15,405 nucleotides of DNA, taken from IMG/VR virus record IMGVR_UViG_2529292906_000015, positions 1 to 15,405 of that record; one strand, written 5' to 3'. The notes under the pieces were generated by a model. The model worked only from the letters and a program-made list of their open reading frames with translations. It was not told the origin of the DNA and ran no database searches. Positions within the stretch are counted from its first letter, which is position 1. Each line of letters opens with the position of its first letter. Origin of the DNA: a virus. Its lineage: Duplodnaviria; Heunggongvirae; Uroviricota; Caudoviricetes. Below are positions 7,760-8,830 of the stretch, in pieces. The position numbers were made by a program, and so were the translations under genes.

Positions 7760-8830
7760 ATGGCTAACGCCTGGCTCAGATTATGGCATGACATGCCAAA
7801 TGACCCTAAGTGGCGAACAATTGCCAGGGTGTCAGGGCAGCCAATTGCAACAGTGATGGCAGTGTATATCCACCTCCTGGTGAGCGCGTCACGAAATGTC
7901 ACGCGAGGTCACATTGATGTCACGACAGAAGATTTGGCAAGTGCGCTCGACGTGACAGAAGAGGTAATTGATTCAATTTTGCAGACGATGCAGGGGCGGG
8001 TACTTGATGGTGATTTAATCACTGGATGGGAAAAACGCCAGGTGCTTAAAGAGGACAACGGCAATATTTCGCAAACCGCAAAATCTCCTGCAGAGCGCAA
8101 GAGGGCGCAGCGAGAGAGGGAAAGAAAGCGGGAACAAAATGGCGATTGTCACGGCGCGTCACGAAATGTCACGCACATGTCACGACGAGTCACGACAGAT
8201 AAAGATACAGATAAAGATACAGATCAAGAAGATCAAAACACTATGGTCCATGGCGTAAAAAACGCCACGAACCAGGCAGGGGATGTTCAGACCGTCAATC
8301 CTGGTCAGCCAGCAGGCACGACACCGGAAGCCGATTCAGCGTATGCGCTGAAAGCCGATTCGGGCGCTGTGCAGCAGGTGATGACCGCAAGGCCGGAGCA
8401 ATCACACCAACTGCAGCAGCCCGAAGCCGATTCCGCCATTCAGCGGGAAGCCGATCGGGTAGTCCCGGAAAACACCGGGCAGTCTGTGGGACGAGTGGAT
8501 TATCCGGATGTGTTCGAACAGGTCTGGCGGGAGTACCCGTTGCGTGCCGGAGCAAACCCGAAGAAATCCGCTTTCAGTGCCTGGAAGGCCAGATTACGCG
8601 AGGGGGTGCCACCAGAGGCCATGCTGGATGGCGTGAGGCGTTACGCAAGATACTTGGCGGCTACCGGGAAAACGGGAACGGAATTTGTTCAGCGAGCGAC
8701 GACGTTTTTTGGACCGGACCGGAATTTTGAGAACCCCTGGTTGCTCCCGGTAAGCGGCACGAACAACCAGCGTTGTGTGAATCATATTTCTGAACCGGAT
8801 AACGAAATTCCGCCGGGCTTCAGGGGGTAA
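7760..8830 (+). CDS. Replication initiator / replisome-organiser protein (lambda O-like role), about 356 aa
   Basis: Position matches a phage O gene. Conserved N-terminus WLRLWHDMPNDPKWRTIARVSG is typical of prophage replication proteins. Iteron arrays lie inside the coding sequence, as in lambda O. The track start at 7754 is a GTG; the ATG at 7760 is more likely. Confidence 0.6.
   Translation: MANAWLRLWHDMPNDPKWRTIARVSGQPIATVMAVYIHLLVSASRNVTRGHIDVTTEDLASALDVTEEVIDSILQTMQGRVLDGDLITGWEKRQVLKEDNGNISQTAKSPAERKRAQRERERKREQNGDCHGASRNVTHMSRRVTTDKDTDKDTDQEDQNTMVHGVKNATNQAGDVQTVNPGQPAGTTPEADSAYALKADSGAVQQVMTARPEQSHQLQQPEADSAIQREADRVVPENTGQSVGRVDYPDVFEQVWREYPLRAGANPKKSAFSAWKARLREGVPPEAMLDGVRRYARYLAATGKTGTEFVQRATTFFGPDRNFENPWLLPVSGTNNQRCVNHISEPDNEIPPGFRG
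7884..8245. repeat. Iteron arrays plus AT-rich tandem repeat inside the initiator gene: candidate origin of replication
   Basis: GTCACG motifs at about 10-bp spacing in two clusters (starting 7888, 7898, 7919 and 8148, 8158, 8168, 8179, 8189). A 21-bp exact duplicate GCGCGTCACGAAATGTCACGC occurs at 7884..7904 and 8154..8174. Directly after the second cluster is a tandem 12-mer GATAAAGATACA x2 (8198..8221) within an AT-rich stretch. Confidence 0.55.

What the first reader, a model, noticed from the sequence alone, without database searches (positions are those of the whole stretch)
7884..8245. Candidate prophage origin: two helically phased GTCACG iteron arrays and an AT-rich tandem 12-mer inside the initiator gene
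GTCACG recurs with about 10-bp periodicity in two clusters roughly 260 bp apart, including a 21-bp exact duplicate. The second cluster is followed immediately by GATAAAGATACA x2 in an AT-rich stretch. This is the same architecture as ori-lambda inside gene O (iterons bound by the initiator N-terminal domain, then an AT-rich unwinding element). The repeats also produce repeated peptides (SRNVTRGHIDVTT and SRNVTHMSRRVTT, then DKDTDKDTD).
Basis: partly seen in the sequence, partly recalled or inferred. Interest (0 to 1): 0.5.

Follow-up and report, generated by a model that had tools for sequence, protein, structure and literature searches.

The report
Prophage replication origin inside initiator gene
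The repeats are real and are most likely the replication origin of a lambda-like E. coli prophage, lying inside the gene of the protein that binds it; this is a textbook arrangement, here in a very common origin type that nobody has annotated.

Summary
GTCAC(G) occurs 4 times (7888-7924) and 5 times (8148-8194) at 10-11 bp spacing, with one inverted copy at 7951-7956. A 21-nt exact duplicate, a 2.9-copy 12-mer and the local GC and duplex-stability minimum (8195-8243) are also there.

The repeats are selected as DNA, not as peptide. The hexamer is read in all three codon phases. Synonymous shuffles never reach the observed counts (0 of 5000). In 23 relatives, third codon positions inside the hexamers are about 94% invariant, against 52% elsewhere.

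Across 55 related loci from many bacterial groups the layout is kept while the iteron changes (GTCACG, GTAACG, CGAACGC, GCAACG, GTGACG, GGAACGC). Where both arrays are present they use the same motif. The AT-rich (GATAMA)n tract follows array 2 in 41 of 55 loci.

I add a third element, a 31-nt palindrome at 8244-8274. It makes the order iterons, AT-rich tract, palindrome the same as in ori-lambda.

The initiator is not lambda O. It has a winged-helix N-domain like that of replisome organizers and DnaD, plus a DnaT-like C-terminal tail. No phage helicase or loader gene lies in the window.

Verdict: a real origin of a known kind, shown by comparison only. Binding and unwinding are untested. The element is in 2036 of 5426 complete E. 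coli genomes.

The parts
7760..8830 (+). Initiator (replisome-organizer-like) gene, 356 aa. ATG at 7760 is preceded by a GAGGTG ribosome-binding site.
   Evidence: ORF list and translation. PHROG phrog_3729 'replication initiation protein', E 5.6e-258. 97-99% identical DNA in seven sequenced E. coli phage records, among them Tritos and Evi.
7760..8140 (+). Codes for the N-terminal winged-helix domain (aa 1-127), the presumed iteron-binding domain.
7888..7924 (+). Iteron array 1: four direct GTCAC(G/A) units at 7888, 7898, 7908 and 7919 (spacing 10, 10, 11), in codons 43-56 of the N-domain.
   Evidence: Third codon positions inside these hexamers are 94% invariant across 23 relatives, against 52% outside (p 5e-6).
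7951..7956 (-). Inverted iteron copy (CGTGAC on the + strand), conserved in relatives. Possibly half of an operator-like inverted pair with the 7919 unit.
   Evidence: It is invariant in the three-way alignment with the Aeromonas and Pseudomonas phages. One to three inverted copies occur in 22 of the 26 relatives whose array-2 5-mer is GTCAC.
7884..7904 (+). First copy of the 21-nt exact duplicate. The second copy is at 8154-8174, 270 nt away, so in the same reading frame.
8148..8194 (+). Iteron array 2 (core): five direct GTCACG units at 8148, 8158, 8168, 8179 and 8189, in the inter-domain linker.
   Evidence: An array at this position is present in nearly all 55 relatives, with a clade-specific motif.
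8195..8243 (+). AT-rich, purine-skewed tract, the presumed DNA unwinding element. It holds ACAGATAAAGAT x2.9 (8195-8229) and two GATC sites (8222, 8231).
   Evidence: A (GATA[AC][AG])n tract is present at this spot in 41 of 55 relatives, against a background of 0.08 per 60 nt.
8244..8274 (.). Imperfect palindrome TGGTCCATGGCGT-AAAAA-ACGCCACGAACCA. On the - strand it forms a 13-pair hairpin in which the two mismatches become G.T wobbles.
   Evidence: Folded as DNA: - strand -10.9 kcal/mol, z -5.29, 0 of 200 shuffles as good; + strand -8.7, z -2.75. Lambda has a 28-bp palindrome in the same relative position. The homologous hairpin in Shigella phage 75/02 Stx carries one compensatory T.A to A.T change. 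Relatives have hairpins at this position.
8450..8755 (+). Codes for the C-terminal helical domain (aa 231-332), the presumed module that recruits the helicase or primosome.
8756..8827 (+). Codes for a DnaT-like C-terminal tail (aa 333-356, ...ISEPDNEIPPGFRG).
   Evidence: NCBIfam DnaT equivalog, positions 156-179 of 179, E 2.4e-4. PDB DnaT chains 6aep, 2ru8 and 9zbt match at their C-termini. Rac YdaU ends in the same tail...PDSAIPPGFRG.

Best explanation
Claim. The stretch 7884-8274 is the theta-type replication origin of this lambdoid (Rac/Qin-like) prophage. It lies inside the gene of its own initiator.

Proposed mechanism.
1. Initiator molecules bind, through their N-terminal winged-helix domain, to the five GTCACG iterons of array 2. 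The iterons are spaced one helical turn apart, so all bound proteins sit on one face of the DNA.
2. The initiator also binds the four direct units and one inverted unit of array 1, 260 bp upstream. Oligomerisation, perhaps with looping between the arrays, distorts the DNA.
3. The adjoining purine-skewed AT-rich tract (8195-8243), the least stable duplex of the region, melts.
4. The flanking palindrome (8244-8274) can then fold on the bottom strand.
5. The C-terminal DnaD-like domain, with its DnaT-like tail, brings in the host DnaB/DnaC or primosome. No phage helicase or loader gene lies between this gene and Q in the window.

Shown here: the elements exist; they are under DNA-level selection; they co-vary with the initiator lineage; they share their order with ori-lambda; the N-domain has a winged-helix fold.

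Inferred: who binds, the unwinding, the looping, the hairpin's role and the host partner.
For: 1. Selection on DNA, not peptide. GTCAC is read in codon phases 3, 1, 2, 1 and 2, 3, 1, 3, 1. Synonymous shuffles give 0 of 5000 as extreme. Third positions inside the hexamers are 0.94 conserved against 0.52 outside in 23 loci from different genera (Mann-Whitney p 5e-6).

2. Conserved architecture with changing iterons. The Aeromonas and Pseudomonas phages (about 70% aa identity) keep GTCACG at the same positions. More distant members have CGAACGC, GCAACG, GTAACG, GTGACG or GGAACGC, in arrays at gene nt about 129-165 and about 350-450, with the GC minimum right after array 2.

3. Concerted evolution of the two arrays. 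The top 5-mer of array 2 recurs at least twice in the array-1 zone in 36 of 48 loci. The total is 137 copies, against 7.8 expected from the rest of the loci and 28 in a cross-locus control.

4. Specificity follows the phage protein, not the host. GTCACG occurs in gamma- and beta-proteobacteria, while GTAACG occurs in Pantoea and Enterobacter.

5. Same three-part order as ori-lambda when lambda is read directly. SPP1 gene 38 carries its repeats and AT-rich tandem at the same place, the linker after the N-domain. There oriL function has been demonstrated (PMC5737612, PMC6316719).

6. Least stable duplex of the region lies at 8199.

7. Modular exchange. An Stx phage with the same C-terminal half has a different N-domain and its own two arrays (GGGGCTTC).

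8. It is the only replication gene in the early region of near-identical sequenced phage records.
Against: - No experiment was done. Binding of the initiator to GTCACG, unwinding and autonomous replication are all untested.
- The N-domain's link to characterised origin-binding replisome organizers is weak. Pfam and TIGRFAM matches are below threshold. hhalign against SPP1 G38P gives probability 0.2%. Foldseek against the PDB gives nothing significant.
- Apart from residues encoded by the iterons themselves, no clear specificity-determining residues were found.
- Array 1 is missing in some relatives, so its role is unclear.
- This copy may sit in a defective prophage: an IS element lies next to a truncated integrase, and Q is split. 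The origin may therefore never fire in this host.
Confidence: 0.8

Rival explanations
1. The arrays are binding sites for the initiator, but they serve mainly to autoregulate or limit copy number (roadblock, operator or handcuffing) rather than as the site where replication starts. The true origin would lie elsewhere.
For: Array 1 lies near the 5' end of the gene and is accompanied by a conserved inverted copy (7951-7956). This resembles the inverted-repeat operators of plasmid Rep proteins. Array 1 is dispensable in some relatives.
Against: Array 2 is always joined directly to the least stable AT-rich tract and then, in the window and in part of the relatives, to a hairpin. That is the defining layout of demonstrated origins: lambda and SPP1 oriL (PMC5737612). 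No other iteron cluster exists in the 15.4 kb window. A regulatory role for array 1 can coexist with an origin role for array 2.
Confidence: 0.08
2. The repeats are bound by another protein, or act in transcription. Examples: targets of the upstream cII/YdaT-like activator; an antisense promoter; or, for the palindrome plus the T-rich tract on the - strand, an intrinsic terminator of an antisense transcript.
For: On the - strand each iteron reads GTGACA, which resembles a -35 hexamer. One promoter-like hit lies at 8172-8145, and the palindrome is flagged as a - strand terminator-like site. Lambda cII does act at direct repeats inside genes (own knowledge).
Against: Promoter-like hits are not above chance (3 found, 2.2 expected). 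Other iteron types (CGAACGC, GCAACG) do not resemble a -35 hexamer, yet they keep the same architecture. In the three annotated relatives with this N-domain, the upstream genes differ while the N-domain is constant. In an Stx phage with a different N-domain the iterons differ too. The T tract after the hairpin is interrupted, so it is not a canonical terminator tail. No Rfam family matches.
Confidence: 0.05
3. The DNA repeats are a by-product of protein-level repeats or low complexity in a disordered linker (SRNVT... and DKDTDKDTD) and have no function as DNA.
For: The 21-nt duplicate is in frame and gives the same peptide twice. The AT-rich tract encodes a DK/DT repeat typical of disordered linkers.
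Against: Within each array the hexamer is read in all three phases. The 10-11 nt period is not a multiple of three. Synonymous positions are frozen only inside the hexamers. The protein sequence alone predicts about 3 GTCAC, not 9. Array 1 lies in a folded domain, not in a low-complexity region.
Confidence: 0.02

Closest known systems
ori-lambda inside gene O of phage lambda (and of Stx phages)
   Same: The origin lies in the middle of the initiator gene, after the DNA-binding N-domain. The order of elements is the same when lambda is read directly: iterons (L140 435-519), a 43-bp AT-rich purine-skewed tract, then a palindrome (563-590; 12-nt arms, 4-nt loop). In the window the order is 8148-8194, 8195-8243, 8244-8274. 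In both, the bottom strand forms the full hairpin. The genomic context is also the same: cI, cro, cII-like gene, initiator.
   Different: The initiator is not a Phage_rep_O protein. The iterons are 6-7 bp cores repeated directly every 10-11 bp, not 18-19 bp inverted repeats bound by dimers. There is a second array 260 bp upstream, inside the N-domain coding sequence. There is no P-like helicase loader gene.
oriL of Bacillus phage SPP1 inside gene 38 (replisome organizer G38P), and similar origins inside the rep genes of lactic-acid-bacteria phages
   Same: Direct repeats bound by the organizer are followed by an AT-rich tandem, inside the gene, in the linker after the N-domain. In SPP1 these are GAAACGACA/GAAAAAGACAC at gene nt about 360-415, then AACAATGAT x3. 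A 356-bp oriL fragment is sufficient for replication in vitro (PMC5737612; PMC6316719). NCBI names the window protein 'phage replisome organizer'.
   Different: Homology is not established. Phage_rep_org_N matches are below threshold and hhalign against G38P gives probability 0.2%. G38P itself matches only Phg_2220_C in Pfam. SPP1 has a dedicated loader and helicase (G39P, G40P), and I found no upstream second array in gene 38. That lactic-acid-bacteria phages have similar origins rests on my own knowledge.
Rac prophage replication gene ydaU of E. coli K-12 (Rac has an active origin, oriJ)
   Same: Same position after racR, ydaS and ydaT. Inside ydaU there are TGTTCAA repeats, then AATAAAGATACAGATAAAGATC, then a CCCCCCC-TAAAT-CCCCCCC-GGGGG hairpin. 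The protein ends in the same tail...PPGFRG.
   Different: The N-domain is DUF1376, unrelated by BLASTP. The iterons differ. ydaU is followed by the DnaC-like ydaV. I could not verify where oriJ maps relative to ydaU; the papers I could reach state only that it is active (PMC3945230).
Iteron origins of plasmids (Rep/RepA type, such as pPS10, R6K, F, P1)
   Same: Direct repeats bound by a winged-helix initiator lie next to an AT-rich unwinding element. There may also be an inverted-repeat operator (own knowledge).
   Different: Plasmid iterons are 17-22 bp units at about 22-bp spacing and lie outside the rep gene. Rep proteins have tandem WH1-WH2 domains. Most such origins also use DnaA boxes, and none lies within 7700-8400 here.

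Membership tests
Lambda-type origin inside the initiator gene (ori-lambda class) | The origin lies within the initiator's coding sequence, downstream of the part that encodes the DNA-binding domain. | tested here: met
   Array 2, the AT tract and the palindrome lie at codons 130-172 of a 356-codon gene, after the folded N-domain (aa 1-95).
Lambda-type origin inside the initiator gene (ori-lambda class) | Several initiator-binding repeats are followed directly by an AT-rich unwinding tract. | tested here: met
   Five phased iterons at 8148-8194 are followed by the GC and stability minimum at 8195-8243.
Lambda-type origin inside the initiator gene (ori-lambda class) | A palindrome lies on the far side of the AT-rich tract. 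| tested here: met
   Window 8244-8274 against lambda L140 563-590.
Lambda-type origin inside the initiator gene (ori-lambda class) | The initiator belongs to the lambda O family (Pfam PF04492). | tested here: not met
   No Pfam family at E <= 0.01 for the whole protein. Phage_rep_O did score on a control protein from locus L162.
Lambda-type origin inside the initiator gene (ori-lambda class) | The iterons are 18-19 bp imperfect inverted repeats. | tested here: not met
   The units are direct repeats with a 6-7 bp core and a 10-11 bp period.
Lambda-type origin inside the initiator gene (ori-lambda class) | The initiator binds the iterons and unwinds the AT tract; the fragment replicates when the initiator is supplied. 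| not testable with these tools
   Needs EMSA or footprinting, KMnO4 probing and a plasmid replication assay.
SPP1-type replisome organizer with an origin inside its gene | An N-terminal Phage_rep_org_N domain (PF09681 / TIGR01714). | tested here: inconclusive
SPP1-type replisome organizer with an origin inside its gene | Direct repeats plus an AT-rich tandem inside the organizer gene. | tested here: met
SPP1-type replisome organizer with an origin inside its gene | Adjacent helicase-loader and helicase genes (G39P/G40P-like). | tested here: not met
   The next gene is DUF977/LygF. No helicase or loader lies between the initiator and Q. Relatives in other hosts do have DnaC-like or DnaB-like neighbours.
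Rac ydaU type (DUF1376 initiator) | A DUF1376 N-terminal domain. | tested here: not met
   The window protein has no DUF1376 hit. YdaU scores 92 bits.
Rac ydaU type (DUF1376 initiator) | A (GATAMA)n tract, then a hairpin, and a ...PPGFRG C-terminal tail. | tested here: met
   Searches compared.
DnaT (primosomal protein I), as some records annotate this gene | Full-length similarity to DnaT (NF002770, cut-off 201 bits). | tested here: not met
   Only the last 24 residues match (19-21 bits). It is a shared tail motif, not membership.

The most novel reading that the evidence does not exclude
The window's origin may be one instance of a modular three-part origin cassette: clade-specific iterons, a (GATAMA)n purine-rich tract, and a hairpin that folds best on the bottom strand. 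The cassette sits in the inter-domain linker of phage initiators with unrelated N-domains: this family, DUF1376/YdaU, lambda O and HTH_36.

In this reading the hairpin is a functional single-stranded DNA signal, for example for loading the helicase or primosome, and not a by-product.

A sub-type of the hairpin supports this. It has a conserved 11-nt loop, TCACTACGTTC, and freely co-varying stems. In the scan of viral contigs, 53 of 125 hits have at least 5 perfect closing pairs, where I estimate about 0.5 would be expected from random flanks. I found no Rfam family for it and no paper that names the motif.

A second unusual point is that one iteron array lies inside the sequence that encodes the DNA-binding domain. 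It evolves in concert with the core array, and the same design recurs with an unrelated N-domain in an Stx phage.
Probability: 0.3. Interest if true: 0.6.

Novelty: new member of a known kind. Interest (0 to 1): 0.4.

Why it matters
The element is in 2036 of 5426 complete E. coli genomes, up to four copies per genome. It also occurs in prophages of many Proteobacteria. The E. coli hits listed, and the annotated phage regions read here, name only the gene ('hypothetical protein', 'phage replisome organizer', 'DnaT-like...', 'replication protein O') and mark no origin there.

Knowing where these prophages start replication has several uses:
- interpreting induction and marker-frequency data;
- explaining replication incompatibility or exclusion between co-resident prophages that carry the same iterons;
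- building initiator-dependent vectors;
- predicting the initiator's specificity from sequence, because the iteron motif can be read straight from the gene.

The single-gene replication module with a DnaT-like tail also suggests a route to host helicase loading that needs no phage-encoded loader. That can be tested directly.

Tried and rejected
- Viral-contig scan with the N-domain alignment. It kept only 100%-identical E. coli copies, which say nothing about divergence. The genome-contig scan gave the diverse set instead.
- Specificity residues. Positions that separate GTCAC-type from GAACG-type proteins are mostly those encoded by the iterons themselves (aa 45-56, 65-67) or lie in an indel region. 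No independent determinant emerged.
- DnaA boxes. None lies within 7700-8400 with up to 1 mismatch, and the window total is below chance.
- Promoter and terminator scans. Not above shuffles. I judged the resemblance of the iterons to a -35 hexamer coincidental, because other iteron types lack it.
- boxB/nut-like reading of the hairpin GGCGT-AAAAA-ACGCC. Rejected: it lies inside the gene, its loop lacks the leading G, and relatives have unrelated loops.
- Resemblance of the conserved loop to the T3/T7 promoter core (CCTCACTA). Noted, but I treated it as coincidence and did not test whether these loci encode a T7-like RNA polymerase.
- Literature on where oriJ lies in Rac. Not found in the accessible library.
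- Function of the extreme C-terminus of DnaT. Not stated in the preprimosome paper.
- Plasmid collection. Hits are prophage-bearing or mis-assigned records and about 51-kb Pseudomonas phage-sized circles. None proves autonomous replication from this origin.
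Full report
CONTEXT

The window is the early region of a lambdoid, Rac/Qin-like E. coli prophage. Its genes, in order:
- an IS transposase (1-888) next to a truncated integrase (928-1671);
- a RecE-like exonuclease (1971-4442, - strand) and DicF RNA (5087-5138, - strand);
- a cI-type repressor (6307-6945, - strand), a P22-type Cro (6989-7279) and a cII/YdaT-like gene (7191-7688);
- a 356-aa replication gene (7760-8830) and DUF977/LygF (8871-9293);
- a kinase-like gene, hok/sok, an HNH/YdfU-like gene, RusA and a split Q.

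The DNA at 7600-8900 is 97-99% identical to seven E. coli phage records, among them Tritos and Evi. In Tritos the same gene is the only replication gene annotated in the 13-kb early region.

- GTCAC(G) lies on the + strand at 7888, 7898, 7908 and 7919, and at 8148, 8158, 8168, 8179 and 8189. An inverted copy is at 7951-7956.
- The 21-nt duplicate is exact: 7884-7904 equals 8154-8174.
- Tandem Repeats Finder reports the 10-nt array and the 12-mer ACAGATAAAGAT, 2.9 copies, at 8195-8229.
- GC drops to 27.5% at 8200-8239. The least stable 40-nt duplex of the region starts at 8199, at the 99.6th percentile of the whole window.

THE REPEATS ARE SELECTED AS DNA

- The hexamer is read in all three codon phases within each array, so it is not a peptide repeat.
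- I shuffled synonymous codons while keeping the protein and its codon usage. The shuffles gave a mean of 2.95 GTCAC (observed 9), 1.62 GTCACG (observed 8) and 0.26 phased neighbour pairs (observed 7). None of 5000 shuffles reached the observed values.
- I then took 23 ungapped relatives from different genera (55-75% aa identity). I looked at the third positions of codons whose amino acid is conserved. Inside the hexamers the majority base has a frequency of 0.94; elsewhere it is 0.52 (p 5e-6).

COMPARATIVE ANATOMY

A tblastn search of phage records and a scan of one genome per species found the N-domain in Gamma-, Beta- and Alphaproteobacteria and in a few MAGs of other phyla.
- Aeromonas phage pAEv1818 and Pseudomonas phage phi1 keep GTCACG at the same positions: four direct copies, one or two inverted copies, then three or four more at about +260.
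- More distant members keep the layout but use another motif: CGAACGC, GCAACG, GTAACG, GTGACG or GGAACGC.
- The motif most repeated just upstream of the AT minimum recurs at least twice in the array-1 zone in 36 of 48 loci. The total is 137 copies, against 7.8 expected from the rest of the loci and 28 in a cross-locus control. The two arrays therefore evolve in concert, as expected if one protein reads both.
- A few relatives lack array 1 but keep array 2. Array 2 plus the AT tract is therefore the core.
- A (GATA[AC][AG])n run, which encodes DKDK or DTDT, follows array 2 in 41 of 55 loci. The background is 0.08 per 60 nt.

A THIRD ELEMENT

- Directly after the AT tract lies TGGTCCATGGCGT-AAAAA-ACGCCACGAACCA (8244-8274).
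- Folded as single-stranded DNA, the - strand forms a 13-pair hairpin (-10.9 kcal/mol, z -5.29, 0 of 200 shuffles as good). The + strand is weaker (z -2.75), because two pairs are G.T on the - strand and C.A on the + strand.
- I read lambda directly. Its iterons (L140 435-519) are followed by a 43-bp AT-rich tract and then by GTCAGAGAATTC-TGGC-GAATCCTCTGAC (563-590). This also folds best on the bottom strand. The order of elements is therefore the same in the two phages.
- In 48 relatives, the 90 nt after the AT tract fold better than shuffles (mean z -1.56; 17 of 48 below -2; Wilcoxon p 5e-11). That test used RNA energy parameters and mononucleotide shuffles.
- The homologous hairpin in Shigella phage 75/02 Stx differs by one compensatory change, T.A to A.T.

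THE INITIATOR

- No Pfam family reaches threshold. Phage_rep_org_N aligns over its full length but scores below the cut-off.
- Array 1 encodes the end of helix 29-45 and the loop before helix 56-63. This stretch is the most variable part of the domain in the protein alignment.
- The last 24 residues match the C-terminus of DnaT. The same tail ends Rac YdaU.
- No helicase or loader gene follows in this prophage. Relatives in other hosts do have DnaC-like or DnaB-like neighbours.

MODULARITY

- The 3' part of the gene (window 8352-8830) recurs at about 82% DNA identity in Stx phages.
- In Shigella phage 75/02 Stx it is fused to an unrelated N-domain (no Pfam hit). That gene carries its own repeat, GGGGCTTC, again in two clusters about 250 bp apart, one inside the N-domain coding part. 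A purine-rich tract and the homologous hairpin follow.
- Rac ydaU (DUF1376) has TGTTCAA repeats, then a GATAAAGATACAGATAAAGATC tract, then a C-rich hairpin.

INTERPRETATION

It is supported by DNA-level constraint, by concerted and clade-specific iteron change, and by element-for-element correspondence with ori-lambda. It is also supported by positional correspondence with SPP1 oriL, whose function has been demonstrated (PMC5737612, PMC6316719).

It is not a member of the lambda O family, and it is not demonstrably a member of the SPP1 G38P family. It works like them but has a different initiator lineage, short iterons phased one turn apart, and a second upstream array.

I rejected three rivals. 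They are a purely regulatory role, binding by another factor or a transcription signal, and a peptide-repeat by-product. The reasons are given under the rival explanations.

WHAT REMAINS INFERRED

- that the initiator binds the iterons;
- that the AT tract melts;
- whether the two arrays loop together;
- what the hairpin does;
- which host proteins the C-terminal module recruits.

This copy may also be silent, because the prophage looks defective.

SIDE FINDING

A sub-type of the post-AT hairpin seen in several relatives has an 11-nt loop, TCACTACGTTC.
- Scanning viral contigs for the 14-mer CTCACTACGTTCGG gave at least 120 loci.
- Of 125 hits, 53 have 5 to 10 perfect closing pairs with unrelated stem sequences. 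I estimate about 0.5 would be expected from random flanks.
- In most of the 25 loci examined, the motif lies in the same reading frame (x-S-L-R-S-x), in the linker of a 210-420 aa initiator-like ORF. The residues on either side pair up exactly as base complementarity requires.
- Where a Pfam family is found, the N-domains of these ORFs are DUF1376, Phage_rep_O or HTH_36.
- No Rfam family covers it, and no paper in the library mentions the motif.
- The window does not contain this sub-type.

VERDICT

It is a new, unannotated and very widespread member of a known kind of phage origin (2036 of 5426 complete E. coli genomes). Interest is moderate.

Noticed in passing
window 8756-8827; L141 3418-3474 (Rac ydaU): The initiator ends in a tail...ISEPDNEIPPGFRG, that matches the extreme C-terminus of the host restart protein DnaT. 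Rac YdaU, which has an unrelated N-domain, ends in the same tail (...PDSAIPPGFRG). It may be a shared docking motif for the host primosome or helicase.
   Followed up: partly
L142-L261 (viral contigs), e.g. L250 12804, L244 4307, L258, L162 7630; also L088, L104, L128: A hairpin with a conserved 11-nt loop, TCACTACGTTC, and freely co-varying stems lies downstream of iteron-like repeats and purine-rich tracts. In most of the 25 loci examined it is in the frame x-SLRS-x, in the linker of a phage initiator-like ORF. The N-domains of those ORFs belong to several families. No Rfam family or paper was found for it.
   Followed up: partly
L175 7517-7690: Six tandem copies of the same hairpin motif at a 32-bp period in one viral contig. 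Unexplained.
   Followed up: no
L262 1078-1100 and 1330-1359 (Shigella phage 75/02 Stx): An initiator with a different N-domain but the window's C-terminal half has its own repeat, GGGGCTTC. The repeat is again in two clusters about 250 bp apart, and here the two clusters are in opposite orientation. The window-type hairpin follows, with one compensatory base-pair change.
   Followed up: partly
window 1-888 and 928-1671: An IS transposase ORF (its start is cut by the window edge; ALIL frameshift pseudoknot at 1-72) lies next to a 247-aa integrase fragment. The prophage has probably lost its ability to excise.
   Followed up: no
window 14161-14661 and 14592-14981: The Q antiterminator is split into two overlapping ORFs that match the N- and C-terminal parts of the same PHROG family. 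This is a frameshift or a pseudogene, and a further sign of a defective prophage.
   Followed up: no
window 5087-5138 (-) and 11964-12138 (+): DicF sRNA and a sok antitoxin RNA (with a hok-like ORF at 12076-12288) are present. The three unphased GTCAC copies at 5100, 5129 and 5170 lie in or just past DicF (5170 is 32 nt beyond its end) and are unrelated to the iterons.
   Followed up: yes
window 7760-8830 (database entries): Most database copies of this protein are labelled 'partial' and end inside the gene. The origin region occurs up to four times per E. coli genome. Short-read assemblies probably break here.
   Followed up: no
window 10929-11723 (-): A 264-aa ORF matches a phage serine-threonine kinase family. 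It sits between the replication module and hok/sok.
   Followed up: no
window 8222 and 8231: Two GATC (Dam) sites lie 9 bp apart inside the AT-rich tract. The whole window has 41 GATC sites. They could allow control of the origin by hemimethylation or SeqA.
   Followed up: no
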